DNA of 64,000 nucleotides from Dehalococcoidia bacterium (lineage in GTDB: Bacteria; Chloroflexota; Dehalococcoidia; Lucifugimonadales; UBA1123). The stretch's first letter is position 1. Each line of letters starts with the position of its first letter. Under the pieces are notes generated by a model, which made no database searches, had not been told where the DNA came from, and saw only the letters and a list, made by a program, of their open reading frames with translations. The DNA is taken from the NCBI GenBank assembly GCA_965232905.1, contig OZ247432.1, forward strand, positions 95,668-159,667, written 5' to 3'. A program made the position numbers and the translations under genes. Below are positions 25,123-39,062 of this stretch, piece by piece.

Positions 25123-28100
25123 ATGTACTTCGACTGGCGACTTTTTGGGCTGACTCGCGGAGTGCGACTCAGGATACTGCTTGCTGCAGTACTGGGCCTG
25201 ATCGCGGTGGGAGCCGGAGTAGCCCGGTTGGCCGTGTCCGGCGTGGTAATCTACCAGGTTCTTACCGGGCAGGCAGGCTTTTCGTCTCTTGCACTGCCTC
25301 TTTCGGTCATCGCCGGGTTGATTGTCATCCGCGGCATCTTCCAATATTGGCAGTACGCAGTCAGCCATCACACCGCGAACATCGTCAAGATCAACCTCCG
25401 CCGTGACGTGTATGAGCACGCGCTGAAACTGGGCCCGGGATACTTCGACCGCAACCGCACGGGAGACGTCGTGCTCACCCTGGTCGAAGGTATCGAACGC
25501 CTGGAGACATTCTTTGGGCAGTACCTGTCCCAGATCATCGTGTCTGCGATTGCGCCGATCGCGATCTTCGCCTACATGGTGACGCTGGATGTCTACATCG
25601 CGCTCATCTTCCTTGTGTTCTCATTCCTCACCCTCGCAGTGCCGGCCATGTTCTATACGTGGAACCGCGATAGCAGCTTCAGGCGTCGGGAATCATACGG
25701 AGAGCTCGGAGCGGACTTCCTTGATAGCGTGCAGGGGTTGTCCACACTCAAGGCCTTTGGACAGAGTGAGAGTAGAGGCAGGGCTCTGGCGGAGCGCGCC
25801 AACAATCTCTACCGCAGCACCATGGGCGTTGTTGCCGCCAACGGCGCGACGAGCGGCGCCTCGATCTTCTTTATGGCAACTGGCGCAGCCGTCGCCCTGG
25901 CAGTGGGGGCGGTCAGAGTCAGCAACGGAGACATGGAGCTCCGTCCTCTGCTGATCGTGCTCATGCTTGGCGTGGAGATATTCAGGCCGATGCGCGAGCT
26001 GACCAACCTGTATCACCAGGGGATGACGGTTATCTCTTCGTCCCAGAGCGTATTCGCGATCATGGACGAGCCCGTCTCAGTCGAGGAGTCCGAGTCGGCC
26101 CTCAGTGGCGCGGCTCCTGAGCTCAGTCCGGATGTCTCGTTCGAGAATGTGACGTTCGGCTACGAGGGGGGGCACAGACAGGCGCTGGAGAACGTCTCAT
26201 TCGACCTCCGCGAGGGAGAGACTCTCGGAGTGGTGGGAGCGAGCGGGGCAGGGAAGTCGACGCTCGTTTGGTTGATGTACAGGTTCTACGATCCTCAGGC
26301 AGGGTCGATCAGGCTGGGCGGACATGACCTGCGCGATCTTCCACTCAACACCATCAGGGACAGCATATCGGTCGTCACACAGGACACTTACCTGTTCCAC
26401 GGGACCGTCGCCGAGAATCTGCGTTTCGGTAAGCCGGGCGCGACACAGGAGGAGCTCGAGGAGGCCGCTCGTGCAGCGAACGCGCATGAGTTCATCACAC
26501 ACCTGCCGCACGGGTACGACACTATAGTCGGGGAGCGAGCTGTTCGGCTGTCTGGTGGGCAGAGGCAGAGACTGGCAATTGCGAGAGCGGTCCTTAAGGA
26601 CGCACCGATCCTTCTCCTAGACGAGGCACTCTCAAGCGTGGACGCGGAGAACGAGACTGTCATCCAGGCCGCGCTCGATCGCCTCATGGAGAATAGGACG
26701 ACACTCGTGATAGCTCACCGGCTATCCAGCGTAATCAATGCTGACCGAATCCTGGTGCTGGACGAGGGACAGGCCGTCGAGATCGGCTCCCACGACGAGC
26801 TAATGGCCGCCGATGGGACTTACGCCGGCCTGATGAGGCAGCAGACAGAGGTGAGTGGAGGCGAGGTCGTCACTATAGACAGGCATCTGGCACGTCCCAA
26901 TGTGCCCACCGACCACGAGCCGGACCTTTCACAATTCGCGGCCGGCCACGGCCATCACCACCCGCCGCCATCGGCTTCTGAAGATGACAGCGGACAGATC
27001 AGCGTGCGGTCACTCAACGTCTGGATTCGGCTGTTCGGACTGGTCCGGCCGGTCAGGTTCCAGTTCCTGATCACACTCGTGCTTGGAATGCTTCATCACG
27101 GATCGATCATAGTGCTGGGCGCACTGAGCGCGCTGCTGGTCGGCGCGGTGTTCCGCGACGAGCCACTTACGACGCTGGTGGTGCTCGTGTGCATCTTCGC
27201 GCCCCTGTCGTCGCTGCTCTTCTACCTGGAGTCCTGGCAGGCGCATGACATGGCATTCCGGCTGCTGGCGAGAATGCGGATCGACCTCTATAACAAGCTG
27301 GAGCCGCTCGCGCCGGCGTACATGGTGAGGCGCAGGTCGGGCGACTTCGTCAGCGTCGTTGGGGGAGACGTGGAGACTGTCGAGTACTTCTTCGCCCACG
27401 CCATCTCGCCCATGATCGTCGCAATTCTGATACCGGGTGGTCTGCTGGTGGCGCTGGCTTTCATAGCCTGGCCAATCGCTGCCGTGCTGGCCCCGTTCCT
27501 TATTGCAGTGGCGGTCAGCCCCTACTTCGCGAATACCCGAATCGAACGTCTCGGAGACGAGATCAGAGGGCGCATGGGAGACATCCACGCCTTCATGGTC
27601 GACAGCATCCAGGGAATGCGGGAAATCTCGGCGTTCAGACGCGGCTGTGACCGCAACGAAGAGTTGACCCAGAAGGGTTGGGACTACGCCGGACACCTGG
27701 TGCGCTTCCAGAAGTCGCAGGCCTTCCAGATTGGCTTCATGGAGGCCATGATGGGGCTTGGCGGTCTCGCCGTGCTGGCCATGGGCGTATGGCTCGTGCT
27801 CGATGGGCAGATCGAGCGAACTTACCTGCCCCTCGTGAGCGTGCTGGCCCTGGCGTCATTCAGCCCGGTGACGGAGCTGGCGCGCACCATGAAGCAGATG
27901 ATGGAGACGCTGGCCGCATCCCGCAGGATACTCGCTGTCCACGACGAAGAGGTGGCGGTGAAGGACGGTCCAGGCGTGTTCGGGGAAGCCGCTGAGCCAT
28001 TCTCTCAGACCCCCTCAATCGACTTCGAGGACGTTGAATTCGCGTACTCGCACGGCGACCCGCAGGCGCTTGAAGACGTTTCATTCGAGATCGGATCGGG

Positions 28101-28761
28101 ACAGACCGTGGCAGTCGTGGGCCGCTCAGGCGCGGGCAAGACCACCAGCGCATATCTCATGATGCGGTTCTGGGACCCGAACCGGGGCAGAATCTCGCTG
28201 GAAGAACACAGTCTGGACCAATTCCGACTCGACGATCTGCGGAGCCGAATCGCTCTGGTCGCCCAGGACACTTACCTGTTCAACAACACGATCCGCGAGA
28301 ACATTCGCCTGGGCCGTCACGACGCCACTGACTTTGAGGTCGAGGAGGCCGCGGGGCAGGCCAACGCGGCAGAGTTCATAGACTCTTTCCCTGAGGGCTA
28401 CGACACACTTGTCGGGGAGAGGGGGATGCAGCTTTCCGGCGGTCAGAGGCAAAGGATCGCGATTGCCCGTGCAATCCTCAAGAATGCTCCGGTACTGATT
28501 CTCGACGAAGCGACTTCGCACCTGGACGCCATCAGCGAGACGACGGTCCGGGATGCGCTGAACAGACTCATGGAGGGTCGCACTACGGTCGTGATAGCAC
28601 ACCGGCTGTCGACGATTCGCGACGCCGACAACATACTTGTCCTCGACGATGGGCAGGTGGTTGAGCAGGGTACGCACACGCAGCTCCTGGAGCGTGGCGG
28701 CCTGTATGCCCAGCTAGTGTCAGCCCAGATGGTTGGAACGGCGCCGGGAGGACCAGACTAA
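25123..28761 (+). CDS. fused two-half ABC exporter (TMD-NBD-TMD-NBD; CydD/CydC-like organisation)
   Basis: 1212 aa. It has two Walker A motifs (GASGAGKST; GRSGAGKTT), two LSGGQRQR signatures and two LDEA Walker B motifs. A His/Pro-rich linker GHGHHHPPPSASEDD joins the halves. Confidence 0.85.
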   Translation: MYFDWRLFGLTRGVRLRILLAAVLGLIAVGAGVARLAVSGVVIYQVLTGQAGFSSLALPLSVIAGLIVIRGIFQYWQYAVSHHTANIVKINLRRDVYEHALKLGPGYFDRNRTGDVVLTLVEGIERLETFFGQYLSQIIVSAIAPIAIFAYMVTLDVYIALIFLVFSFLTLAVPAMFYTWNRDSSFRRRESYGELGADFLDSVQGLSTLKAFGQSESRGRALAERANNLYRSTMGVVAANGATSGASIFFMATGAAVALAVGAVRVSNGDMELRPLLIVLMLGVEIFRPMRELTNLYHQGMTVISSSQSVFAIMDEPVSVEESESALSGAAPELSPDVSFENVTFGYEGGHRQALENVSFDLREGETLGVVGASGAGKSTLVWLMYRFYDPQAGSIRLGGHDLRDLPLNTIRDSISVVTQDTYLFHGTVAENLRFGKPGATQEELEEAARAANAHEFITHLPHGYDTIVGERAVRLSGGQRQRLAIARAVLKDAPILLLDEALSSVDAENETVIQAALDRLMENRTTLVIAHRLSSVINADRILVLDEGQAVEIGSHDELMAADGTYAGLMRQQTEVSGGEVVTIDRHLARPNVPTDHEPDLSQFAAGHGHHHPPPSASEDDSGQISVRSLNVWIRLFGLVRPVRFQFLITLVLGMLHHGSIIVLGALSALLVGAVFRDEPLTTLVVLVCIFAPLSSLLFYLESWQAHDMAFRLLARMRIDLYNKLEPLAPAYMVRRRSGDFVSVVGGDVETVEYFFAHAISPMIVAILIPGGLLVALAFIAWPIAAVLAPFLIAVAVSPYFANTRIERLGDEIRGRMGDIHAFMVDSIQGMREISAFRRGCDRNEELTQKGWDYAGHLVRFQKSQAFQIGFMEAMMGLGGLAVLAMGVWLVLDGQIERTYLPLVSVLALASFSPVTELARTMKQMMETLAASRRILAVHDEEVAVKDGPGVFGEAAEPFSQTPSIDFEDVEFAYSHGDPQALEDVSFEIGSGQTVAVVGRSGAGKTTSAYLMMRFWDPNRGRISLEEHSLDQFRLDDLRSRIALVAQDTYLFNNTIRENIRLGRHDATDFEVEEAAGQANAAEFIDSFPEGYDTLVGERGMQLSGGQRQRIAIARAILKNAPVLILDEATSHLDAISETTVRDALNRLMEGRTTVVIAHRLSTIRDADNILVLDDGQVVEQGTHTQLLERGGLYAQLVSAQMVGTAPGGPD

Positions 28762-28783
28762 GTCTGATTCGGCAGGGCTGCCT

Positions 28784-28802
28784 CTCGCTCCTGAGGAGCG
28801 AG
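28784..28802. terminator. GC-rich stem-loop between convergent ABC genes
   Basis: CTCGCTCC / GGAGCGAG forms an 8-bp stem with a 3-nt loop, inside the 43-nt gap between stops 28761 and 28805. No U-tract. Confidence 0.35.
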
Positions 28803-28804
28803 GC

Positions 28805-30652
28805 CTAGTGGCCGTTTCTAGCTGCGGGGAGCGCCGCGTCAATGGCGGCGTAGTTCATCTTGTACAGGTGAGCGTACAGCCCGTCGTCGGCCATCAGCTT
28901 GTCGTGATTGCCGATCTCCATGACTTCGCCGAAGTTCAGGACGACAATCTTGTCCGCGCCCCGTATGGTGGAGAGCCTGTGAGCGATCACGACGGCAGTG
29001 CGACCCTTGAGCAACCCTTCGAGCGCACGTTGGATGAGGACCTCGGTGTAGCTGTCGATGTTCGCAGTCGCCTCGTCCAGGATCAGAATCTTGGGGTCAG
29101 CGACAATCGCGCGCGCAAAGCTGATTAGCTGGCGCTGGCCGATGCTCAGATTTCCACCGCGCTCAGCGAGGAACGTATCGTAGCCGTTCTCGAGCGCCAT
29201 GATGAAGTCGTGGGCGCCTACTGCCTGCGCGGCTTCAAACATCTGCTCGTCGGTGGCTTCAGTGTGGTTGTACTTGATGTTCTCCCTAACCGTGCCTGAG
29301 AACAGGTAGGGCTCCTGGAGTACCATGCTCATCTGGTTGGCGAGGCTGCTCCTCACTACCTGCCTGACGTCATGGCCGTCGATGGAAACGGTTCCGCGGC
29401 CTGGCTCGACATCATAGAAACGCGACATCAGGCTTATAAATGTTGTCTTGCCGGCGCCGGTGGGTCCGACGACTGCTACGACCTCGCCCGGCTCTATGTG
29501 GACGTTTACGTCTTTCAGAACGTCTTCGCCTTCGACATAGCTGAAGCTGACGTTCTTGAACTCGATCTCGCCCTTGATGTTAGGAAGCACTGGCGCGTCT
29601 TCTTCGTCGACCAGATCGGGTTCCCAGTCAAGCAGGTCGAATATACGGGAGCCGGACGCCATTGAGCGCTGGAGCTGTGTGTACATCATCGTCAGGTTGC
29701 GGATCGGATCGAAGAACCGTTGGATGTAGAGAATAAAGGCGACAAGTGTGCCGATTTCCAGGGCTCCGCCGCCGATCAGGCGGGCGCCGAAGAAGAGGGC
29801 CAGCCCGATTGCCACTGCGGTCAGGATGTCGACTGCAGGGATAAGGCCTGCGGACAGCCGGCTTGCGGTCATGTTGGCCTCACGATGATCAACGTTCAGA
29901 TCGTTGAACCCGTCGAGGTTGCGGTCCTGCCGGTTCATGGCCTGGACCACCCGGATGCCTGTGATGTTCTGGTTTAGCTCGCCGTTCACAATCGAGATGG
30001 TCCGGCGGACTTCCACGAAAGCCTTACGTGCGAGGGGCTGCCACACCAACATCGTAAGTATGAGGAGAGGCAGCACGGCCAGGGTGATCAAACCCAGTTG
30101 GAAGTCCAGGATCAACAGGGCAACGATGATTCCGATCAGGCCGAGCAGCTCTCCCAACGTCATTACGACGAGGGCGGCAAACTCCTGGAGCTGACCGACG
30201 TCCCCCTGGACTCGGGACATCATCCGGCCCACTTCGGTCCTGTCGTAGAACGAGACCGACTGTTTCTGGACATGGTGGAAAACATCGCGCCGCAGGTTGT
30301 ACAGGATTCCCTGTCCGACCTTTTCCATCGAAAACTGCATGATGAAGTTCATTACCCAGTTCAGTGCGGCGATCGCAATGAACAGGATGAACATGAACGT
30401 CAGGCCGGCGTAGTCGCCCACCTCGATAAAGCGGTCGATTCCGATTTTGATTGCCCAGGGAATCGCGACCTGAGTGCCAGTGTAGACAAGCATGGCTAAC
30501 GCTGAAATGATGGCCAACTTCTTGAAGGGCAGTATGTAGGGCAGAAGCTTTAGTACGACACGCTGATCGTAAACGGCGCCAAACATCTCCTCGTCGGGAT
30601 GTCCCCGCCGGGCGCTGCCCCCACCGAATCCCATTCCGCCGCCCATCATCAT
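28805..30652 (-). CDS. ABC exporter half-transporter (TMD-NBD), consensus Walker B but non-canonical signature
   Basis: 615 aa. GPTGAGKTT, ILILDEATANID (catalytic Glu present), and signature LSIGQRQ instead of LSGGQ. Confidence 0.88.
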   Translation of the reverse strand: MMMGGGMGFGGGSARRGHPDEEMFGAVYDQRVVLKLLPYILPFKKLAIISALAMLVYTGTQVAIPWAIKIGIDRFIEVGDYAGLTFMFILFIAIAALNWVMNFIMQFSMEKVGQGILYNLRRDVFHHVQKQSVSFYDRTEVGRMMSRVQGDVGQLQEFAALVVMTLGELLGLIGIIVALLILDFQLGLITLAVLPLLILTMLVWQPLARKAFVEVRRTISIVNGELNQNITGIRVVQAMNRQDRNLDGFNDLNVDHREANMTASRLSAGLIPAVDILTAVAIGLALFFGARLIGGGALEIGTLVAFILYIQRFFDPIRNLTMMYTQLQRSMASGSRIFDLLDWEPDLVDEEDAPVLPNIKGEIEFKNVSFSYVEGEDVLKDVNVHIEPGEVVAVVGPTGAGKTTFISLMSRFYDVEPGRGTVSIDGHDVRQVVRSSLANQMSMVLQEPYLFSGTVRENIKYNHTEATDEQMFEAAQAVGAHDFIMALENGYDTFLAERGGNLSIGQRQLISFARAIVADPKILILDEATANIDSYTEVLIQRALEGLLKGRTAVVIAHRLSTIRGADKIVVLNFGEVMEIGNHDKLMADDGLYAHLYKMNYAAIDAALPAARNGH

Positions 30653-30707
30653 GGGAGTTCAGTCCTTTCGTGCGCGACTTGTGTGCAGAAACTATGCATC
30701 TTGCTCA

Positions 30708-32495
30708 CTAGCTTCCCGTAGCCGGGATGGGCGATTCCAGTTCACGCATTACTTCTTCCTGAGGTCGGAGCTGGAGGTCGTAGATCTCCTTGTAGAGCCC
30801 GTCATGCTCCACGAGTTCCTGGTGGGTGCCCTGCTCCGCAATCTGACCCTCTCTCATGACAATGATCTTGTCGGCGCGGTGCACTGTACTGAGACGGTGG
30901 GCAATCACGAACGTAGTCCTGCCCTCCATGACGGACTCCATGGCCATCCTGATCTGCGATTCGGTCTGCGCGTCAACGCTGGAAGTGGAGTCGTCGAGTA
31001 TGAGGACCGGAGGGTCGAGCAGCACGGCGCGAGCGATGGACATACGCTGGCGCTGACCGCCCGACAGAGTGGAGCCACGCTCTCCGACGTGAGTGTCGTA
31101 GCCGTCAGGCAGCGACTCAATGAATTCGTGCATCTGGGCAATCTTTGCTGCCCTTTCGATCATCTCCTGGGTAGCGTCGACATTTCCGTAGGCGATGTTT
31201 TCACGGATCGATGTGGTGAACAGGAAGACATCCTGCTGAACGATGCCGATGTTGCGTCTCAGAGACTCCAGACTGACATTCCGTATGTCGGAGCCATCGA
31301 TGGATATCCAGCCGCCTGTGGCGTCATAGAAGCGGGGTATCAAGTTGACGACGCTGGACTTACCGCTTCCCGGTGGTCCAAGCAGAGCGACAACCTCACC
31401 GGGCTGGGCATCCAGGTTCAGGCCTCTCAGGACGCGCCTGGTATGGTCATAGCTGAATGTAACATTGTGGAACCTGACACGACCTCGTGGTCTCCGCAGC
31501 TCGCGCGCGTTGACGTCGTCCTCGACAGGTGACTTGGCGTCGAGAATCTCGAACAGACGCTGTCCGGCGGACGCGGCACGGGCATACGAGTTCACGAGCC
31601 AGCCAGCCATTCGCACGGGCATCTGAAGCATCTGCAGGTAGAAGATGAACTCAGCCAACTCGCCAACTGACATGTCGCCGCTCATTACGCGCCGACCGCC
31701 GAAGAAGAGGATCAGTCCCATCGCCATCAGGAACGTGAAGAGCATGAAAGAGGTGCTGGAGGCCCGCATCTTCTCGGCCTCTATGAAGTGGGCCGAGACC
31801 TCGCGATTGCGGCGCTCAAACTTCGTCTCTTCATGAGCTTCAGCGGCAAACGCCTTCACCACTCGTATACCAGTGAAGTTCTCCTGGAGCACCGTGCTCA
31901 TTTCGGCCATCTTCTCCTGGACGATGAGCCAGATGTTGCGCATCTTCAGCCGGATCATCGCGGAGTAGATCATTACGACCGGCATGAAGCTGGCGCTGAT
32001 GAGGCCGAGCCTCCAGTCCTTTACGAACAGGATTATGGCGACGACCAAGAAGAGCAGGAGGAAGTACGGAGTACGGACCAGGCCCATGTTGATGAACATT
32101 CGGATGTTCTCGACATCAGTGATGGCCCGAGACATGAGCGCGCCGGTGTGGTAGCGGTCATGAAAGCCGAAGCTCATGTGCTGTACGTGGTTGTACAGGG
32201 AGTTTCTTATGTCGTACGAGACCATCTGGGAAAGCGCCTCACCCAGGTAGGTCTGGAAGTACGAGAGCACACCCCTGATGACGCTCAGCCCCAGGATGAT
32301 GGCAGAAATGGTGAAGATCGCGTCAAGACTGGTTGAACCAGTCTCGAACATCTCTTTGATTTCGTCGACAGCCTGCCCCATGTATCGGGGCATGAGAACA
32401 AACGCAATAAGCGCTCCGACCATGCTGATGTAGGCTCCAATGAGCCTCCACTTGTGGTTGAGCGCTATACCGATGATGCGGGCGATTTCTATCAT
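30708..32495 (-). CDS. ABC exporter half-transporter (TMD-NBD), catalytic Glu replaced by Asp
   Basis: 595 aa. GPPGSGKSS, canonical LSGGQRQR, and Walker B VLILDDSTSSVD (D in place of E). Confidence 0.88.
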   Translation of the reverse strand: MIEIARIIGIALNHKWRLIGAYISMVGALIAFVLMPRYMGQAVDEIKEMFETGSTSLDAIFTISAIILGLSVIRGVLSYFQTYLGEALSQMVSYDIRNSLYNHVQHMSFGFHDRYHTGALMSRAITDVENIRMFINMGLVRTPYFLLLFLVVAIILFVKDWRLGLISASFMPVVMIYSAMIRLKMRNIWLIVQEKMAEMSTVLQENFTGIRVVKAFAAEAHEETKFERRNREVSAHFIEAEKMRASSTSFMLFTFLMAMGLILFFGGRRVMSGDMSVGELAEFIFYLQMLQMPVRMAGWLVNSYARAASAGQRLFEILDAKSPVEDDVNARELRRPRGRVRFHNVTFSYDHTRRVLRGLNLDAQPGEVVALLGPPGSGKSSVVNLIPRFYDATGGWISIDGSDIRNVSLESLRRNIGIVQQDVFLFTTSIRENIAYGNVDATQEMIERAAKIAQMHEFIESLPDGYDTHVGERGSTLSGGQRQRMSIARAVLLDPPVLILDDSTSSVDAQTESQIRMAMESVMEGRTTFVIAHRLSTVHRADKIIVMREGQIAEQGTHQELVEHDGLYKEIYDLQLRPQEEVMRELESPIPATGS

Positions 32496-32716: not shown

Positions 32717-33973
32717 CTACTCGTAGCGCAGTGCGTCTATGGGATGGAGCCTGGCGGCTCGGAGCGCAGGGTAGATCCCGAAGAAGAGCCCGATGCCTAT
32801 GGACACGCCCAGCGCCAGGATCGTTATCTGGGCATCGATGGATGTCTCCAATGTCGGACCGCCGAGGAAGTCCTGCCCATTCATCGCCATGGTTATAAGA
32901 CCCCCAAGAGCCAGCCCGACCAGCCCGCCGCCGAAACTCAGCACGGCGGCTTCTGTCACGAACTGGAGCATGATGTCGCGACGCTTCGCTCCCATTGCCT
33001 TTCGGATGCCGATCTCACGCGTGCGCTCCGTAACGGTGACGAACATGATGTTCATTATGCCGATACCGCCCACAAGCAGGCTGATGGCAGCAATGCTGCC
33101 CAGGAAGATAGTGAACGCGCCGATCGCGCTCTCAATCGCCTCCAGTGCCTGTTCTTGTGTGGTGATGGTGAAGTCGTCTGCTTCGACGATGCGGTGTCGC
33201 AGCCGCAGAATGTCCCTGACCTCGCGCTCCGCGCTCTTGGCGACTTCGCTGGATTCCGCCTGAACGTTGATGCTGCCGACCTGGATCTCGCCTTTGGAGT
33301 TTGGGTGGAATTGCAGCCGGTAGTGAGCTGTAGTCAGGGGGATCATTATGTTCCGGTCCAGGAACCCGAAGAACCCGCCCTCCTTGCTCTCCAGGACCCC
33401 GATAATTGTGAACGGCTTGTCGTTCAGCTTGATAGTCTGCCCGACCGGACTTCTAAGTCCAAATAGCGACTCCGAAATGCCCGCGCCAAGAACGGCTACC
33501 GACGCGGCATCGCGAACGTGGACAGGGGCAATGAACTCGCCCTGCTCAGCGACATACAGTCGGACGTCGTCGTAGTCCGCAGTGACGCCAAGAATCGTCG
33601 TATCGTCCGAGCGTCTGCCATACTCTACGCGTGCCCAGGTGTTGATCTCCGGGGCAACGGCGACTACAGATGGTGCGTTGACGGGATCGAGGAGCGCATA
33701 GGCGTCATCAAGCGTCAGTGTGTCTTCATCTCCACCCCCCCCGAAGAACGCCCCGAAACCCTCGTCATCGCTCGAACCGGGTGTGACCGTGATCAGGTTC
33801 GTCCCGAGTGACTCGAACTCCGACGTAATCGACTTCTGCACTCCCTGACCGAGCGAGATCAGGACAATCACTGCGGTTACGCCAATGACTATGCCGAGCA
33901 GCGTAAGCGCTGCTCGAAGCTTGTTCGATGCCAGCGAAGACAGCGCCGTGAGCATTATGTCCAGGGGATTCAC
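32717..33973 (-). CDS. MacB/FtsX-type ABC permease with large extracytoplasmic domain
   Basis: Start re-assigned to GTG 33973..33971, which overlaps the upstream TGA as GTGA. The N-terminus VNPLDIMLTALSSLASNKLRAALTLLGIVIGV is typical MacB. C-terminal FtsX block with 4 TM helices. Confidence 0.85.
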   Translation of the reverse strand: MNPLDIMLTALSSLASNKLRAALTLLGIVIGVTAVIVLISLGQGVQKSITSEFESLGTNLITVTPGSSDDEGFGAFFGGGGDEDTLTLDDAYALLDPVNAPSVVAVAPEINTWARVEYGRRSDDTTILGVTADYDDVRLYVAEQGEFIAPVHVRDAASVAVLGAGISESLFGLRSPVGQTIKLNDKPFTIIGVLESKEGGFFGFLDRNIMIPLTTAHYRLQFHPNSKGEIQVGSINVQAESSEVAKSAEREVRDILRLRHRIVEADDFTITTQEQALEAIESAIGAFTIFLGSIAAISLLVGGIGIMNIMFVTVTERTREIGIRKAMGAKRRDIMLQFVTEAAVLSFGGGLVGLALGGLITMAMNGQDFLGGPTLETSIDAQITILALGVSIGIGLFFGIYPALRAARLHPIDALRYE

Positions 33974-34740
33974 GCTATAGAAGGCTCCGTGGACTGCAGT
34001 GGGCCTTGCCCGGCGGCACTCCTTGCACCGCCCGGCCACTGCTCCCCGCCGGGGCCCCAGGTATCCCGGTGACTGTCACCCACAACGCGACCATCGAGCA
34101 TGGAAATGATCCGGTTGGTCTCGGCCGCGATGTCGAACTCATGCGTCACGATCATCAGGGTGAGTCCCTGCTCACGGTTGAGGTCCTTGAGCAGAGTCAT
34201 GATCTCCTCGCTGGACGTGCTGTCCAGGTTCCCGGTGGGCTCATCGGCCAGCATGATGCTCGGTTCCTTGACGAGAGCCCTGGCTATTCCCACACGCTGC
34301 TGCTGACCGCCGGACAGCTCGGTCGGCTTGTGGTTGGCCCGGTCTCCGAGCCCGACCATCTCGAGCGCTTCCATCGCGCGGCGCCTCCGGTCAGTCCCAC
34401 TGTTGTACATCAGGGGAAGCTCGACATTGGCACGCGCCGATAGCCTTGGCAGCAGATTGTAGGTCTGGAATACGAAACCGATCTGCCTGCCTCGAATCTC
34501 CGAGAGGCGGCTGTCCGACATCTTGCTGATGTCCTGGCCTTCCAGCTCGTAGCGTCCGCTTGTAGGGGCGTCCAGGCAGCCGACGAGATTCATGAGCGTG
34601 GACTTGCCCGAGCCTGAAGGGCCGATAACCGCTACCATCTCGCCCTCTTCGATCTCCAGGGAGACTCCCTGCAGGGCGCCCACCTCGACCTCGCCCATCC
34701 TGTAGATCTTCGTCACGTCTTCCAGTGTAATCAGGGCCAT
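33970..34740 (-). CDS. MacB/LolD-type ABC ATPase
   Basis: 256 aa. GPSGSGKST, LSGGQQQRVGIARAL, IMLADEPTGNLD. Carries a C-terminal extension of about 35 aa. Confidence 0.92.
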   Translation of the reverse strand: MALITLEDVTKIYRMGEVEVGALQGVSLEIEEGEMVAVIGPSGSGKSTLMNLVGCLDAPTSGRYELEGQDISKMSDSRLSEIRGRQIGFVFQTYNLLPRLSARANVELPLMYNSGTDRRRRAMEALEMVGLGDRANHKPTELSGGQQQRVGIARALVKEPSIMLADEPTGNLDSTSSEEIMTLLKDLNREQGLTLMIVTHEFDIAAETNRIISMLDGRVVGDSHRDTWGPGGEQWPGGARSAAGQGPLQSTEPSIA

Positions 34741-34762: not shown

Positions 34763-37237
34763 CTACTGCTCGCGCGGTCCGGGACCGCCGTTGTCTTCGT
34801 CGTCCTCGTTGAAGAACTGAACATCCTGGCCTTCTGGCGCAACCGCGACCACCATGTCTCCCTCGTTCAGGCCTTCGGTTACGATGGTCCAGAAGTCATC
34901 GCTGTTGCCAAGTTTGACCGGGGTTTCAACTGACTCCTCGTTGACCATCAGGTGAACAATCGGGTTGTCGAAACTGCCACGAATGGCGTTTACGGGAATC
35001 AGGAGAACGTCCGTCTCGCGACTGAGGACGATCCTTGCCACGGCGCTCAGGCCCTCCGGCGCTTGGACGTCCTGTGGAAGCTCTATCTCAACGCGAATGG
35101 GGTAGCTGACGACGCTCTGCTGCTCCAGGGGTTCAGCTCCGACGAACGACACCTTGCCTGATATGGTCTGATCGGGCAGCGCGTCCATCTTGACCTCTGC
35201 CTCCACTCCCACCTCAATCGAGAGCACGTCTATCTCATCGACTGAGCCGTCAACCTCCACCACTCCGGTGTCCACGAGCACAGCAACCACGTCATTCGCC
35301 TCGACATCCTCACCCTCTTCGGCGTCCACGCGAGAGACGAAACCATCCGAAGGTGCCCTGAGCCCGGATGCGTCGGCAAGCCGCTCCTGGGACTCTTCCA
35401 GGAGTGTCTGAGCACTCTCCACTTTCGCGGTGAGCAGGTCAAGGTCGACGCTATCGGGGTCGTTCAGCAGCTCTTCGAGTTCTTCCTGCCTCTTTTCGAG
35501 AGCCAGTTGTGCTACGGTCGCCGCGTGCAGCGCGGTCTGATAGTCAGAACGGTCCTGCCCTGAAAGGAGCTCGGCCTGCTGTGACTTCAGGTCTTCAAGA
35601 TTGGCCCGCGCAAGCTCGACTTTGGCTGTGAGGTCGTCGGCTATGGCGGAATTCTTTAGTTCTGTCAGGTCGGCAAGGCTCTCTCTTGCCTCCGCGAAGT
35701 TCGCCCGTGCGACTTCGATCTCCACCGCCTTGGCGGCGATCTCCAGTTCGTCTATTGGGTCTGTCAGGTCTGCGAGGCTCTGCCTGGCATCATTGAGGTC
35801 TTCTTCGGCAACCCGTACGGCCGACTGCATCTGGGATCGAAAGACTGGATCCACCGGCTCTGTAAGCTCTTCGATGCGGTCTTCAGCATTCTCGATTGCA
35901 GACCGCGATGAGTCTATTCTCTCCTGAGCTGATGCGAGGGCATTGAGTGCGTCAGAGTCGGCACTGGCACTTCCATCAATGGCATCCTGGTACGCTTCGC
36001 CAGCCGTCCTGAACTCCTCTTCTATGCAGATGGTTCCGAATGGAGGAGGGTCGTTGCGCTCGCACGTTGCCTCCAGGTCCTGTCTCGAAAAGTGCAGCCA
36101 CACATGGACCTGGGACTCGTTCCATGCGGTGCCTGGATCGTCGAGCGGAATAGACTCGCCGAAGGCCAGCCCCCGTCCTCTACCATCTGGCGAGAACAGC
36201 AAATCGAGGTCGACTCCGTAGTCTGCAAACGCGACACGGTAGTCAGGGTTGAGCGAGTCAGCCGGCTGGACAATGCCCAGCCACGTGTTGAACGTGTCGG
36301 CATAGGCTTGGCCTGCATCGTTCAGCGCGTCCCGGGCTTCCCTGGTAGCGACCTCACCGCTGCGTTGAGCGACGGCATAGTCCGCCTGCGCGTTGGTGAG
36401 ATTCGTCCTGGCTGTCTCCAGGTCCTGGCGCGCGTTATCCAGGTCTCGAGAGACGTCTTCATCGTTTACGCCCGCTTCGTACTTTTCCAGAGCTTCGACA
36501 GCGTCTTCGAGGGCGACCTCAGCTCTGGCGACTCTGTCGGTCGCGTGAGCGACCTCGAGCGCAGTTGGTGAGCCTTCAAGATCAGCGAGGGCGCGTTCAG
36601 CCTCGATGACATTGCGAGCGGCCTGGGCTATGTCCAACTCTGAGGGGCTCTCCATCTCGTCAGCAAGTGCATCTTCGGCGTCTTGCAGCGCCCGTGCTGC
36701 TGCTGCGACCTGTTCCGCCATTGCTGAGAGCTGCAAGCCCGTGGGGGAGATCACGTCGTCGAGAGCCTCGGTGGCGTCATCGAGAGTGTCCTGTGCAACT
36801 GCGACCGCCTGCCTCGCTTCGGCTACGGATAGGTCAGGAGGTGAGACCAGATCGTCCAGCTCGTCCTGTGCGTCTCGTACCGCAGCACTCGCCTCAGTGA
36901 CTTCCCGTTCGAGGCGTGCGATGGTTTCGGCGTCCAGTCGAGCGATGATGTCACCCGCCGAGACGCGCTCACCCTCCTTTACCAGTACCTCCGCCACCAC
37001 GCCCTGCGACCCGAAGGTCATATTCTCCCGCTCCGGGAAGCTGATGCTGCCGCTTATTGAGATCTCGTTTACCAGGTCGCCGCGCCGTACGTTGACGAGC
37101 TGCTGGTCTTCTTCAAGCCCCGTCGTGTCTGGGCTCGTTGCATTGCGATAGGTGACGAAAGAGCCAACGACGATGACGACAAGGACAACGACCAAGGCGA
37201 TGATCTGCCATCGCCTCAGTCGGGTTAGGAATCTCAT
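34763..37237 (-). CDS. MacA/HlyD-family periplasmic adaptor with about 520-aa coiled-coil/tip insertion
   Basis: 824 aa. N-terminal TM helix. The lipoyl-like halves sit at aa 50-103 and 626-656 (LRAPSDGFVSRV), followed by beta-barrel and MP domains. Everything between the halves is heptad-like Ala/Glu/Asp-rich sequence around a roughly 100-aa non-helical segment. Confidence 0.8.
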   Translation of the reverse strand: MRFLTRLRRWQIIALVVVLVVIVVGSFVTYRNATSPDTTGLEEDQQLVNVRRGDLVNEISISGSISFPERENMTFGSQGVVAEVLVKEGERVSAGDIIARLDAETIARLEREVTEASAAVRDAQDELDDLVSPPDLSVAEARQAVAVAQDTLDDATEALDDVISPTGLQLSAMAEQVAAAARALQDAEDALADEMESPSELDIAQAARNVIEAERALADLEGSPTALEVAHATDRVARAEVALEDAVEALEKYEAGVNDEDVSRDLDNARQDLETARTNLTNAQADYAVAQRSGEVATREARDALNDAGQAYADTFNTWLGIVQPADSLNPDYRVAFADYGVDLDLLFSPDGRGRGLAFGESIPLDDPGTAWNESQVHVWLHFSRQDLEATCERNDPPPFGTICIEEEFRTAGEAYQDAIDGSASADSDALNALASAQERIDSSRSAIENAEDRIEELTEPVDPVFRSQMQSAVRVAEEDLNDARQSLADLTDPIDELEIAAKAVEIEVARANFAEARESLADLTELKNSAIADDLTAKVELARANLEDLKSQQAELLSGQDRSDYQTALHAATVAQLALEKRQEELEELLNDPDSVDLDLLTAKVESAQTLLEESQERLADASGLRAPSDGFVSRVDAEEGEDVEANDVVAVLVDTGVVEVDGSVDEIDVLSIEVGVEAEVKMDALPDQTISGKVSFVGAEPLEQQSVVSYPIRVEIELPQDVQAPEGLSAVARIVLSRETDVLLIPVNAIRGSFDNPIVHLMVNEESVETPVKLGNSDDFWTIVTEGLNEGDMVVAVAPEGQDVQFFNEDDEDNGGPGPREQ

Positions 37238-37282: not shown

Positions 37283-38152
37283 CTACCGGCCCCGACGAGG
37301 ATGATTGACCGGAAAGACCAGGTACGGGCGACTGTCAGGCGCGGTGGTCTTCATTGCGTGGATAAGCATCCAGTACCGTAATTCTGTGCCTCTGAAGACC
37401 TGCTCCGCCCGGCGTCGGTCTTGTGGCGAGAGCCTTGAAAGTATGTGCCTAACCTTGGACCTGAATACCTCGCGGTCCTGCTCCAGACCTCGTACGAGAA
37501 GCTCGGCCCTGGTCTGCCCAATGGTTGCGGGCGGCCTTGTGGGCATCTCGACCGGATTCACGGCAACAGAGACGCCGGCATAACGCGCGCAGCGGACCAG
37601 ATTGTCGTTCATCCGCCGAACGGTAACATCGGCTCTTGTGAACTGACCTCGCTCTATAAGCTTGCCAACCTCTTTGCCCCTCACCTCGGCGAGCGCGGCC
37701 TCGAAATTCGCCCTGCCGTCGTCCGAGCGCGGGAGTCTTCCTTCGACGTTCTCCTTGGCGGTCTTCACCCAGTAGAGAGGCTCTCCCGGGACGGATTCGG
37801 ACGACGCGGCAGTAGCTACGCCTGCTCCCATTACGAACACCAGTATGGACGCCAGGCCAACTGCAATCGGACGGGCCACAGGGAGCCATCTGAATTGGAA
37901 CCACGACATCCTGCGTCTGGGTCTGGAGGACCGCTGCTGAACTGCCTCGGAGAATCTGAGGAAGTTGCGATCTCTGGCCTGAGGATCGGGCCTGACTTCT
38001 TCAGCCGCATTGATCGTCGCAAGGGCAACGTGAAGTAGAGGCTCCAGTTCGCCGGCCTGCTGAGGGTAGCGACGAAGACAATCGTGAATGTCCTCGCCCT
38101 TTACAAGTCGGTCGAGGCAGTCGTTAAGTGCTTCGCTGAACTCCTGGCTCAT
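37283..38152 (-). CDS. membrane-anchored anti-sigma-like protein (DUF5667-type extracytoplasmic domain)
   Basis: 289 aa. Cytoplasmic N-terminal helix bundle, one TM helix (IAVGLASILVFVMGAGVA), then PGEPLYWVKTAKENV, which is typical of DUF5667. Lies 31 nt downstream of the ECF sigma gene. Confidence 0.6.
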   Translation of the reverse strand: MSQEFSEALNDCLDRLVKGEDIHDCLRRYPQQAGELEPLLHVALATINAAEEVRPDPQARDRNFLRFSEAVQQRSSRPRRRMSWFQFRWLPVARPIAVGLASILVFVMGAGVATAASSESVPGEPLYWVKTAKENVEGRLPRSDDGRANFEAALAEVRGKEVGKLIERGQFTRADVTVRRMNDNLVRCARYAGVSVAVNPVEMPTRPPATIGQTRAELLVRGLEQDREVFRSKVRHILSRLSPQDRRRAEQVFRGTELRYWMLIHAMKTTAPDSRPYLVFPVNHPRRGR

Positions 38153-38183
38153 CTCGCACCTCTCGGATTAGAAAGGCAACCGG

Positions 38184-38783
38184 TCATAGCTCGGGCTCCG
38201 GTGTCACTACTGCAAATGGGCCCGGATTGGTCATCAGATTCCTCAGCTTTCGAATGCCGGCGTGTTGGAGCGCCTTGACGGCGTTATCCTTTCTGCCAAC
38301 TGCATCGGCAGTCTCGGCTATCGAGAGGCCGGCCACGAAACGCAGCGTAATGACCTCGCGCTGGAGGTCTGTGAGGCTGGTCATCGCTTCAACGACCTCG
38401 CCCATACTCCAGCTTATCTGGGCCTGGTTTTCCATCTCTCCATCTTTTTCACTTGAGAAGTGCAGCACCTTGTCCAGGGGAACAGTAGGCTTTCTACCCT
38501 TGCGCCGGAAGTTGTCGACCACAAGGTTGTGTGCGATGCGATACAGCCACGACGTGAATGGAAATCCCTGGAACTTGAACTTGTCTATCGACTCCAGCAT
38601 TCTCAGGAACACCTCTCCTGTGAGGTCCTCCGCCTCGAGCCTGTTGCCGCACTTGAATGAGACGTACCTGAAGATCTGGTCGTAGTATCTTTCGTATAGT
38701 TCGGCAAACGCCGATTGGTCACCCGCCTGAGCGCGCCTGACGATGTCTTCGACGATCTCGCGATTCGCCTGCTTCTCTTGCAT
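38184..38783 (-). CDS. ECF-type (group 4) sigma-70 family sigma factor
   Basis: Start taken as ATG 38783 (MQEKQANREIV...). Region 2 is FRYVSFKCGNRLEAEDLTGEVFLRM...WLYRIAHNLVVD. Region 4 is LTDLQREVITLRFVAGLSIAETA. The ORF-track GTG at 38843 has no SD. Confidence 0.85.
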   Translation of the reverse strand: MQEKQANREIVEDIVRRAQAGDQSAFAELYERYYDQIFRYVSFKCGNRLEAEDLTGEVFLRMLESIDKFKFQGFPFTSWLYRIAHNLVVDNFRRKGRKPTVPLDKVLHFSSEKDGEMENQAQISWSMGEVVEAMTSLTDLQREVITLRFVAGLSIAETADAVGRKDNAVKALQHAGIRKLRNLMTNPGPFAVVTPEPEL

Positions 38784-39062
38784 TGCTACCTTGGATCCTG
38801 GTGGGAGCTGCCGCAGCGAAGGCACACTTCGACATGCGCTCACCTGCTGTAACGTGGTGGCCCGGTGTTAGGTTAGTTGATTGGATGCACCAGGCACCTG
38901 AGGAGATTTTAGCTGAACTGAGCGGTTGACGCCCTGCGAATGTAGCGTGTTGTCTGTGCCAGCTTGGTGTTTGGGACTGTCAATCGTGCTAACATTGCGC
39001 CGTTGGCCGATTTGTTACGATGAGCCGGTCTGAGCCAACTGTACAGGATTGAAGGGTAGGAC

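What the first reader, a model, noticed from the sequence alone, without database searches (positions are those of the whole stretch)
34763..37237. Giant MacA/HlyD-type adaptor: two roughly 210-residue segmented helical arms flanking a roughly 100-aa Cys-containing tip domain
Seen directly: the two halves of the lipoyl-like domain lie at aa ~50-103 and ~626-656, and 520 residues are inserted between them.
- Residues ~104-314 and ~416-625 are Ala/Glu/Asp/Leu-rich and of nearly equal length (212 versus 210 aa), as expected for an antiparallel hairpin.
- Both arms are punctuated about every 33 aa by a conserved break: L.DLVSPPDL, LDDVISPTGL, EMESPSEL and LEGSPTAL on the way up, and EELTEPVDP, LADLTDPIDEL and LLNDPDSVDL on the way down.
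- Residues ~315-415 (nt 35993..36295) are non-helical: FNTWLGIVQPADSLNPDYRV...ATCERNDPPPFGTICIEEEF, with two Cys.

Established knowledge: characterised adaptors are roughly 370-480 aa (MacA, AcrA, HlyD), and their hairpin tip docks onto TolC.

Inference: this adaptor could span a much wider or differently organised envelope. It carries its own tip module instead of docking to a TolC-like channel, and none is encoded nearby. If the arms were continuous helices, each would be about 30 nm long. The Pro breaks may instead fold them into stacked bundles.
Basis: partly seen in the sequence, partly recalled or inferred. Interest (0 to 1): 0.62.

Follow-up and report, generated by a model that had tools for sequence, protein, structure and literature searches.

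The report
Giant modular efflux adaptor with capped tip
A marine-type Dehalococcoidia bacterium with no outer membrane and no peptidoglycan genes encodes an efflux-pump adaptor whose helical hairpin is about five times the usual length, is built from paired 33-residue modules and ends in a small conserved domain of unknown fold, so it probably forms a long duct or stalk from a MacB-type pump towards the cell's protein surface layer.

Summary
The minus-strand ORF 34763..37237 encodes an 824-aa membrane-anchored adaptor (TIGR01730 above cut-off). Its lipoyl domain is split by about 520 residues: two arms of about 210 residues flanking a tip of about 95 residues.

The arms are 33-residue repeats: a roughly 30-residue heptad helix with Ala at d positions, then a Pro-Pro/N-cap break. 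Across 219 relatives the arms range from about 36 to 344 residues in steps of about 32.6. Up and down arm lengths agree (r = 0.95; 0.99 without two outliers). Breaks in the two arms lie at the same height. This points to an antiparallel, segmented hairpin.

The tip folds confidently (pLDDT 93.8) into a small alpha/beta domain with two invariant Cys. It has no Pfam, PDB-sequence or Foldseek match.

The genome lacks TolC, BamA, PBP and MurG. Its only other adaptor is a 782-aa paralogue. All 39 tip-bearing genomes tested lack PBPs, against 47% of the class.

The operon is ECF sigma, anti-sigma, adaptor, ABC ATPase, MacB permease.

Best reading: a stress-induced MacB pump whose adaptor reaches about 40 nm towards an S-layer. 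Extended geometry, hexamer and docking partner are inferred. It is a new variant of a known kind; I found no description of it in the held papers.

The parts
34763..37237 (-). Adaptor (membrane fusion protein) gene, 824 aa
   Evidence: ORF. TIGR01730 scores 108.3 bits against a cut-off of 94.9. HlyD_3, HlyD_D23 and Biotin_lipoyl_2 are above their cut-offs.
37151..37210 (-). N-terminal membrane anchor (aa ~10-29, after RxxxRRW)
   Evidence: Read directly from the translation: MRFLTRLRRWQIIALVVVLVVIVVGSFVTY.
36929..37093 (-). N-terminal barrel strand plus first half of the lipoyl domain (aa 49-103)
   Evidence: Biotin_lipoyl_2 at aa 76-102. Aligns to MacA 4dk0 residues 11-69.
36296..36928 (-). 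Ascending arm (aa 104-314): about 6.5 units of a 33-residue helix-break repeat
   Evidence: Repeat HMM hits and break motifs. Periodicity at lags 7 and 32-33. Repeat profile.
36011..36295 (-). Tip domain (aa 315-409): small alpha/beta domain with invariant Y312, W319, G321, T370, W372, W380, C392 and C404
   Evidence: Alignment A1. AF2 pLDDT 93.8, pTM 0.86. No match in Pfam, PDB sequences or Foldseek.
35363..36010 (-). Descending arm (aa 410-625): the same 33-residue repeat, with breaks in register with the ascending arm
   Evidence: Register test: 89% of break pairs are offset by -4..0 modulo 33.
35033..35362 (-). Second half of the lipoyl domain plus beta-barrel domain (aa 626-735)
   Evidence: HlyD_3 at aa 626-721 and HlyD_D23.
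34838..35032 (-). Membrane-proximal domain (aa 736-800)
   Evidence: Aligns to the C-terminal part of MacA 4dk0/4dk1 up to residue 351. TIGR01730 is matched to profile position 307 of 322.
33970..34740 (-). ABC ATPase of the pump (256 aa), 22 nt downstream of the adaptor
   Evidence: ABC_tran 5.4e-36. The position is conserved in L001-L004, L007, L008 and L010.
32717..33955 (-). MacB-type permease. The likely start is the ATG at 33955, 14 nt after the ATPase stop. The listed ORF runs from a GTG at 34039.
   Evidence: MacB_PCD 6.5e-50 and FtsX 5.6e-23. Translation.
37283..38152 (-). Anti-sigma-like membrane protein (DUF5667), 45 nt upstream of the adaptor
   Evidence: DUF5667 2.5e-09. Conserved in L001-L004.
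38184..38843 (-). ECF-type sigma factor at the head of the co-oriented gene row
   Evidence: Sigma70_r2, Sigma70_ECF and Sigma70_r4. Conserved in L001-L004.

Best explanation
The gene encodes the adaptor (membrane fusion protein) of a MacB-type ABC exporter in a Dehalococcoidia bacterium. The genome has no outer-membrane or peptidoglycan marker genes.

Shown:
- The protein has the full adaptor core: membrane anchor, split lipoyl domain, beta-barrel and membrane-proximal domain.
- It sits in a conserved gene row: ECF sigma, anti-sigma, adaptor, ATPase, MacB permease.
- Its hairpin consists of two equal arms made of 33-residue modules, each a roughly 30-residue heptad helix followed by a Pro-Pro/N-cap break.
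- In relatives, modules are gained or lost on both arms together.
- Breaks in the two arms lie at the same height.
- A conserved two-Cys tip domain of about 95 residues, with no known relative, replaces the TolC-docking hairpin turn.

Inferred:
- Six copies form a MacA/Spr0693-like ring on the MacB dimer.
- The hairpins stay extended as a segmented 12-helix tube or stalk of about 31 nm. Adding the roughly 10-nm adaptor base gives about 40 nm above the membrane.
- The ring of tip domains reaches, docks to or gates at the proteinaceous surface layer.
- Peptide or amphiphile substrates taken from the membrane surface under envelope stress would then be discharged beyond the space under that layer.
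For: Adaptor identity:
- TIGR01730 scores 108.3 bits against a cut-off of 94.9.
- HlyD_3, HlyD_D23 and Biotin_lipoyl_2 match.
- PDB sequence matches include MacA 4dk0, EmrA and Spr0693 5xu0.

Partner and operon:
- MacB_PCD + FtsX and ABC_tran genes lie next door.
- The gene order is conserved in Dehalococcoidia MAGs.

Antiparallel pairing:
- In 219 relatives the up and down arm lengths correlate with r = 0.95, or 0.992 without two outliers.
- 200 of 219 agree within 10 residues of the median up-down difference (-3 residues), against a mean of 41 and a maximum of 57 in 2000 shuffles.
- Arm lengths are quantised at about 32.6 residues.
- 89% of break pairs are in register by height, against 15% expected.
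- AF2 of the tip with 34-residue flanks gives pTM 0.86 with two long flanking helices.

Repeat anatomy:
- a positions are V/I/L and d positions are Ala, an Alacoil-like pattern typical of antiparallel pairs.

No outer-membrane or wall target:
- No OEP, Omp85, PBP or MurG in the one-contig, 95.5%-complete genome.
- 0 of 39 tip-bearing genomes have a PBP, against 188 of 401 in the class.

Envelope scale:
- SAR202 isolates are monoderm, lack peptidoglycan genes and show an S-layer-like coat (PMC10444878).
- Tepidiforma, in the same class, has a 40-nm space under its S-layer (PMC10284905).

Precedent:
- Spr0693 forms a hexameric nanotube on a MacB-like pump in a monoderm (PMC5768738).
- Both odd and even module numbers are common. 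This argues against zigzag folding, which would flip the position of the tip.
Against: - No full-length model with an alignment and no multimer model was obtained. The single-sequence model was poor (pLDDT 43.5), so extended geometry and hexamer are inferred.
- Breaks at matching heights in both helices are also what a fold-back would need. CusB's hairpin is folded back (PMC4446572).
- The genome's own paralogue has arms one module shorter (180/181 against 207/213). This speaks against a strict envelope ruler.
- Arm lengths of about 5 to 51 nm within one class are a wide range for envelope widths.
- No S-layer protein or any binding partner of the tip was identified.
- The restriction to PBP-less genomes may only reflect phylogeny, since it rests on 12 genera.
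- The substrate is unknown.
Confidence: 0.55

Rival explanations
1. Compact folded adaptor. The hairpin bends back at the in-register Pro-Pro nodes, so that successive two-helix segments pack into four-helix or larger bundles. The result would be a short, thick cage or chamber above MacB rather than a long duct.
For: - Each module ends in a helix breaker followed by an N-cap box.
- The breaks coincide in both arms.
- Hydrophobic positions lie outside the a/d core (V25, L5, L11), which suggests extra packing.
- CusB's hairpin folds back into a bundle, and a 'foldase cage' role has been proposed for hairpins in Gram-positives (PMC4446572).
Against: - The linker is only 2-3 residues long.
- Odd and even module numbers are equally tolerated, although a zigzag would move the tip from one end to the other.
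- The heptad pattern runs uninterrupted for about 30 residues.
- AF2 gives straight 35-38-residue helices next to the tip.
- The extra hydrophobic positions are equally explained by neighbour contacts in a 12-helix barrel.
Confidence: 0.22
2. Mechanotransmission lever rather than a duct. As in FtsEX with EnvC or PcsB, the MacB-type motor would move the long coiled coil to switch the tip domain. The tip would then bind or activate an extracellular partner such as a surface-layer or remodelling enzyme. No substrate would travel through a lumen.
For: - MacB-family motors work by mechanotransmission, and FtsEX controls hydrolases through coiled-coil partners (PMC5985334, PMC5768738 discussion).
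- The tip is a conserved folded domain, better conserved than the arms (0.63 against 0.56-0.57).
- The operon is under an ECF sigma/anti-sigma pair.
Against: - The protein keeps the complete ring-forming adaptor core, including beta-barrel and membrane-proximal domains. Those domains are not listed for PcsB, described only as a peptidoglycan hydrolase (PMC5768738); that PcsB and EnvC lack them is from my own knowledge and was not checked here.
- The tip has no recognisable enzymatic or binding fold.
- No candidate partner gene lies in the conserved operon.
Confidence: 0.13
3. Structural strut. The adaptor would mainly serve as a spacer or anchor that holds the surface layer at a fixed distance from the membrane, with transport secondary or lost.
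For: - Arm length is stable within genera and differs between them.
- The family occurs only in PBP-less genomes.
Against: - The gene is always coupled to an intact ATPase and MacB permease with good domain scores.
- Two paralogues of different length coexist in one genome.
- Only 40 of 401 class genomes carry the family, so it cannot be a general envelope scaffold.
Confidence: 0.07

Closest known systems
Spr0693 (Streptococcus pneumoniae, PDB 5XU0) and YknX (Bacillus): adaptors of MacAB-like pumps in monoderm bacteria
   Same: - Membrane-anchored adaptor with lipoyl, beta-barrel and helical hairpin domains.
- Encoded beside a separate ABC ATPase and a MacB/FtsX permease.
- The host has no outer membrane and no TolC.
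- yknX is listed in a study of the ECF sigma-W regulon (PMC3498285, listing); that sigma W controls the yknWXYZ operon is my own recollection. Here the operon starts with an ECF sigma.
- Weak direct sequence match to 5xu0 (E = 0.0038).
   Different: - The Spr0693 hairpin barrel is 56 A high and the whole assembly reaches about 154 A (PMC5768738). Here each arm has about 210 residues, about 31 nm if extended.
- The arms are built of 33-residue modules.
- The hairpin turn is replaced by a folded two-Cys domain of about 95 residues.
- The host also lacks peptidoglycan genes.
- No YknW-like fourth gene was seen.
E. coli / A. actinomycetemcomitans MacA of MacAB-TolC (PDB 4DK0, 3FPP, 5NIK)
   Same: - Best solved sequence relative (4dk0/4dk1, E about 2e-07).
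- Same domain order and the same type of inner-membrane partner.
   Different: - The MacA equivalog model scores 41.8 bits against a cut-off of 342.
- There is no RxxxLxxxxxxS TolC-binding motif at the distal end (motif defined in PMC3391258).
- The genome has no TolC.
- The hairpin is about five times longer.
Long-hairpin adaptors EmrA (127 A coiled coil, PDB 4TKO) and HlyD (8DCK)
   Same: - Extended antiparallel coiled coil spliced into the lipoyl loop.
- Length is changed by paired insertions in both helices (PMC4446572, PMC4158417).
   Different: - Those hairpins are continuous, at most about 13 nm long, and end in a TolC-docking turn.
- Here the unit of change is a whole 33-residue module with a Pro-Pro node.
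- Arm lengths range from about 36 to 344 residues.
- The end is a globular domain.

Membership tests
Periplasmic adaptor / membrane fusion protein (TIGR01730 RND_mfp; Pfam HlyD_3, HlyD_D23) | Family model above its curated cut-off | tested here: met
   TIGR01730 scores 108.3 bits against 94.9. HlyD_3 scores 64.2 against 22.2. HlyD_D23 scores 58.5 against 30.
Periplasmic adaptor / membrane fusion protein | Lipoyl (barrel-sandwich) domain split by a helical hairpin | tested here: met
   Biotin_lipoyl_2 lies at aa 76-102 and the second half starts at aa 626. The 520 residues between are mostly helical.
Periplasmic adaptor / membrane fusion protein | Beta-barrel and membrane-proximal domains after the hairpin | tested here: met
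   Residues 597-798 align to MacA 4dk0 residues 129-351. TIGR01730 positions 109-307 are matched.
Periplasmic adaptor / membrane fusion protein | Hexameric ring on the transporter | not testable with these tools
   No multimer prediction was available. The ring-forming residues of MacA were not mapped.
MacA (NF008606 equivalog) of MacAB-TolC | Equivalog model above cut-off | tested here: not met
   41.8 bits against a cut-off of 342.
MacA of MacAB-TolC | RxxxLxxxxxxS motif at the hairpin tip for TolC docking (PMC3391258) | tested here: not met
   The only match to R.{3}L.{6}[ST] is at aa 51, in the N-terminal strand region. The distal end is a 95-aa domain.
MacA of MacAB-TolC | TolC-family outer-membrane partner in the genome | tested here: not met
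   PF02321 gives 0 matches in the own genome, while the control genomes score. Omp85 is also absent.
MacA / YknX-type adaptors | Adjacent MacB-type permease (MacB_PCD + FtsX) and ABC ATPase | tested here: met
   Conserved in relatives.
YknX / Spr0693-type adaptor of monoderms | Short hairpin (about 56 A barrel) ending in a simple turn | tested here: not met
   The arms have about 210 residues each, and a folded tip domain is present.
HlyD type I secretion adaptor (TIGR01843) and DevB (TIGR02971) | Subfamily models above cut-off | tested here: not met
   TIGR01843 scores 55.4 against 208.65. TIGR02971 scores 46.8 against 129.
Ankyrin repeat (raised by a 33-residue periodic match) | TPLH motif and conserved Gly turns giving helix-turn-helix-loop units | tested here: not met
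   No single matched stretch is significant (best i-Evalue 0.03; the total E of 1.6e-11 sums many weak stretches). The arms have 1-2% Gly. The repeat has no Gly column and an unbroken heptad pattern.

The most novel reading that the evidence does not exclude
Peptidoglycan-less, outer-membrane-less Dehalococcoidia build a TolC-independent export chimney from the adaptor alone. It would be a length-tunable, segmented 12-helix tube of about 5 to 50 nm, adjusted one 33-residue module pair at a time. Its six new-fold, disulfide-stabilised tip domains would form the docking or gating ring in the surface layer, doing the job that TolC does in diderms.
Probability: 0.3. Interest if true: 0.75.

Novelty: new variant of a known kind. 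Interest (0 to 1): 0.62.

Why it matters
Reviews of efflux adaptors have long asked why bacteria without an outer membrane keep adaptors with helical hairpins (PMC4446572).

This family gives that question a concrete, testable form:
- The hairpin length is modular and lineage-specific.
- The TolC-docking turn is replaced by a dedicated, conserved domain.
- The hosts have neither outer-membrane nor peptidoglycan marker genes.

If the arms are extended, this would be by far the longest adaptor duct I am aware of. It would be a natural example of a protein ruler adjusted in 4.5-nm steps.

The tip domain is a small, confidently predicted fold with no relative in the libraries searched. It is a good target for structure determination and partner hunting in SAR202-type bacteria, which have recently become cultivable (PMC10444878).

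Tried and rejected
- **Single-sequence AF2 of the full protein** gave pLDDT 43.5. It is unusable beyond a rough helix map and cost one of the two structure jobs, so no full-length model with an alignment could be made.
- **Tip domain searches** found nothing significant: Pfam, a PDB profile, Foldseek against the PDB (best E 1.2, TM at most 0.38) and Foldseek against viral structures.
- **The search for related loci with the tip alignment** failed because no stretch was conserved enough. The single-protein query found only four close relatives.
- **First regex anchors** for arm lengths failed or mis-anchored by one repeat in distant members. They were replaced by HMM anchors.
- **A three-repeat profile hit ankyrins** at E = 1.6e-11. 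This was rejected as a periodicity effect: no single stretch is significant, and the Gly and TPLH features are absent.
- **Weak Rad50/SbcC, MsbA and LXG matches** to the arms are treated as coiled-coil or compositional noise.
- **Outlier P0122** (arms 240 against 512) is explained by an exact 299-residue internal duplication that includes the tip.
- **Literature searches** for a description of such adaptors in Chloroflexota or monoderms found none.
Full report
**What is there**

The finding's coordinates hold one minus-strand ORF (34763..37237, ATG start, 824 aa). It begins with a basic stretch and one hydrophobic helix (MRFLTRLRRWQIIALVVVLVVIVVGSFVTY), so the rest of the protein lies outside the cytoplasm.
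- Pfam finds the first half of a lipoyl-like domain at aa 76-102 and HlyD_3/HlyD_D23 from aa 626.
- NCBIfam's adaptor model TIGR01730 scores 108.3 bits against a cut-off of 94.9.
- The MacA, HlyD, DevB, EmrA and CusB models all stay far below their cut-offs.
- The nearest solved sequences are MacA (4dk0/4dk1), EmrA, HlyD and the pneumococcal Spr0693.

**Gene neighbourhood**

The genes lie in a co-oriented row:
- Downstream are an ABC ATPase (33970..34740) and a MacB-type permease with MacB_PCD and FtsX domains. Its likely start is 33955, 14 nt after the ATPase stop.
- Upstream are a DUF5667 anti-sigma-like protein and an ECF sigma factor.
- The order sigma, anti-sigma, adaptor, ATPase, permease recurs in four Dehalococcoidia MAGs at 72-76% adaptor identity.
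- More distant relatives keep the ATPase directly behind the adaptor.

**The arms**

- With motif anchors the arms measure 216 and 218 residues. With HMM anchors they measure 207 and 213.
- They are rich in Ala, Glu, Asp and Leu and have 1-2% Gly.
- Self-identity over 97 homologues peaks at lag 7 and at lags 32-33 and 65-66.
- A repeat HMM built from 122 units gives the 33-mer L-A-D-L-L-E-P-P-[DST]-D-L-E-V-A-x-A-x-x-x-V-A-x-A-x-V-A-L-x-x-A-x-E-A.
- Positions 13, 20, 27 and 1 are V/I/L. Positions 16, 23, 30 and 4 are Ala or Leu.
- This is an unbroken a/d heptad pattern over about 30 residues with Ala at d, the pattern of tightly packed antiparallel helix pairs.
- Positions 7-8 are Pro-Pro, followed by an S/T/D-x-x-E N-cap box. 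Each unit is therefore one helix of about 4.4 nm plus a break of 2-3 residues.
Weaker breaks lie near aa 255, 525 and 558.

**Evidence that the arms pair**

This is the main new result.
- I anchored the end of the first lipoyl half, both ends of the tip, and the start of the second lipoyl half with HMMs in 219 family members.
- Arm lengths run from 36 to 344 residues in classes about 32.6 residues apart (roughly 36, 78, 112, 145, 177, 209, 241, 273, 308, 341).
- Up and down lengths correlate with r = 0.95, or 0.992 without two outliers.
- 200 of 219 agree within 10 residues of the median up-down difference (-3 residues), against a mean of 41 and a maximum of 57 in 2000 shuffles.
- The largest outlier carries an exact 299-residue internal duplication that includes the tip.
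- The tip stays at 94-111 residues throughout, measured between the HMM anchors, which take in a few flanking residues.
- Measured from the lipoyl base, breaks in the two arms coincide. 89% of up/down break pairs differ by -4..0 residues modulo 33, against 15% expected.
- These sequences are related, so the counts are not independent events. The pattern nevertheless holds across all length classes.
- Modules are thus gained and lost on both arms together, and the nodes face each other. That is what an antiparallel hairpin made of two-helix segments predicts.

**The tip**

- An alignment of 41 diverse tips with 34-residue flanks (A1) has invariant Y312, W319, G321, T370, W372, W380, C392 and C404.
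- AF2 on this alignment gives pLDDT 93.8 and pTM 0.86.
- The model shows a long incoming helix, two short helices, a loop, another short helix, a beta-hairpin carrying the two Cys at its base, and a long outgoing helix.
- The high pTM implies a fixed arrangement of the two flanking helices.
- The domain has no match in Pfam, PDB sequences or Foldseek against the PDB or viral models. The best hits are unrelated coiled-coil hairpins at E above 1.
- A disulfide between the two Cys is an inference from their position and the extracytoplasmic location.
- In same-architecture relatives the tip is better conserved (0.63) than the arms (0.56-0.57). It is less conserved than the core domains (0.70-0.73).

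**The host envelope**

- The window lies in a single 3.39-Mb contig rated 95.5% complete.
- It has no TolC-family OEP, no Omp85/BamA, no PBP transpeptidase and no MurG. The control genomes score as expected.
- Its only other adaptor is a 782-aa paralogue with the same tip, arms of 180/181 residues and its own MacB permease.
- Close relatives are labelled Dehalococcoidia, and one homologue is labelled SAR202.
- Cultured SAR202 cells are monoderm, lack peptidoglycan genes and show an S-layer-like coat (PMC10444878).
- In Tepidiforma, of the same class, cryo-ET shows a 40-nm space between membrane and S-layer (PMC10284905).

**Distribution**

- The tip profile finds only 249 clusters (50% identity) among 1.84 billion representatives.
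- It is found in 4 of 401 genomes sampled from the phylum and 40 of 401 from the class, in 13 of 223 genera.
- Open frames run from about 520 to 1220 aa. Length is stable within genera: about 565 aa in one genus and 1020-1080 aa in another.
- None of 39 tip-bearing genomes has a PBP, against 188 of 401 in the class. This fits a link with wall-less envelopes but may simply reflect ancestry.
- Adaptor frames of 500-1000 aa are common in the class even without this tip. Great length is therefore a lineage habit, and the tip family is one branch of it.

**How it most likely works**

Shown: adaptor identity, MacB partner, operon, modular paired arms, a folded tip without known relatives, and absence of TolC and wall markers.

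Inferred:
- By analogy with MacA and Spr0693 (PMC5768738), six copies ring the MacB dimer.
- The hairpins stand side by side as a segmented 12-helix tube or stalk.
- At 0.148 nm per residue the arms span 31-32 nm. The adaptor base adds about 10 nm, since Spr0693's assembly of 154 A includes a 56 A hairpin. The total of about 40 nm matches the scale of the sub-S-layer space seen in the class.
- The tip ring would then dock to or gate at the coat, taking over the role of TolC.
- The ECF sigma at the head of the row suggests induction by envelope stress. yknX is listed in a study of the B. subtilis sigma-W regulon (PMC3498285, listing); that sigma W controls yknWXYZ is my own recollection.

**Rivals**

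- *Fold-back.* The in-register Pro-Pro nodes would also allow the hairpin to fold back into bundles, as CusB's hairpin does (PMC4446572). I rate this lower for three reasons. Odd and even module numbers are equally frequent, although folding would flip the tip's position. The linkers are very short. The helices next to the tip are predicted straight.
- *Lever.* A FtsEX-like lever role for the tip remains possible.
- *Strut.* A purely structural strut role also remains possible.
- *Against a strict ruler.* The coexistence of two paralogues differing by one module argues against a strict ruler.

**Comparison and novelty**

- The protein works like, and is a member of, the adaptor superfamily.
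- It is not MacA: the equivalog model fails, there is no RLS motif and there is no TolC.
- It differs from YknX/Spr0693 in hairpin length, modular build and tip.
- The held literature, including reviews from 2015, 2021 and 2026, does not describe such adaptors.
- Earlier AI notes of this scan describe what appears to be the same family in another marine Chloroflexota genome, and related giant adaptors. They agree with this reading but are not independent evidence.

**Verdict:** a real, conserved, uncharacterised variant of a known kind.

Noticed in passing
window 37283-38843 (-): An ECF sigma factor and a DUF5667 anti-sigma-like membrane protein head the same gene row as the adaptor and pump. 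The arrangement is conserved in four related MAGs. It suggests envelope-stress control, comparable to sigma W and yknWXYZ in Bacillus.
   Followed up: partly
own genome C1:1972782-1976409 (-), outside the window: There is a second tip-bearing adaptor (782 aa, arms 180/181, one module shorter than the query) directly followed by its own MacB-type permease. These two are the only adaptors in the genome.
   Followed up: partly
window 32717-34039 (-): The listed permease ORF starts at a GTG that overlaps the ATPase gene by 70 nt. An in-frame ATG at 33955, 14 nt after the ATPase stop and just before the first membrane helix, is the more likely start.
   Followed up: partly
protein P0122 (1169 aa, metagenomic relative): It carries an exact tandem duplication of about 299 residues that includes the whole tip domain and adjoining arm segments. 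This is either an assembly artefact or a very recent duplication that would give a two-tipped hairpin.
   Followed up: partly
arms of the adaptor, window 35363-36928 (-): A three-repeat profile of the arms scores E = 1.6e-11 against ankyrin-repeat proteins in the PDB. The score comes purely from summing weak stretches with the same 33-residue period and a shared P-x-L-x-[IV]-A ... V..LL pattern. I judged it a periodicity coincidence, not homology.
   Followed up: yes
class-wide survey: Adaptor open frames of 500-1000 aa are common across Dehalococcoidia. This includes genomes that do have PBPs and lack this tip domain, so long hairpins are a wider habit of the class with probably several different distal ends.
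   Followed up: no
window 25123-32495: Three further ABC exporter genes lie next to the MacB operon: one fused 1212-aa gene and a pair of 615 and 595 aa. Together they form an exporter-rich island.
   Followed up: no
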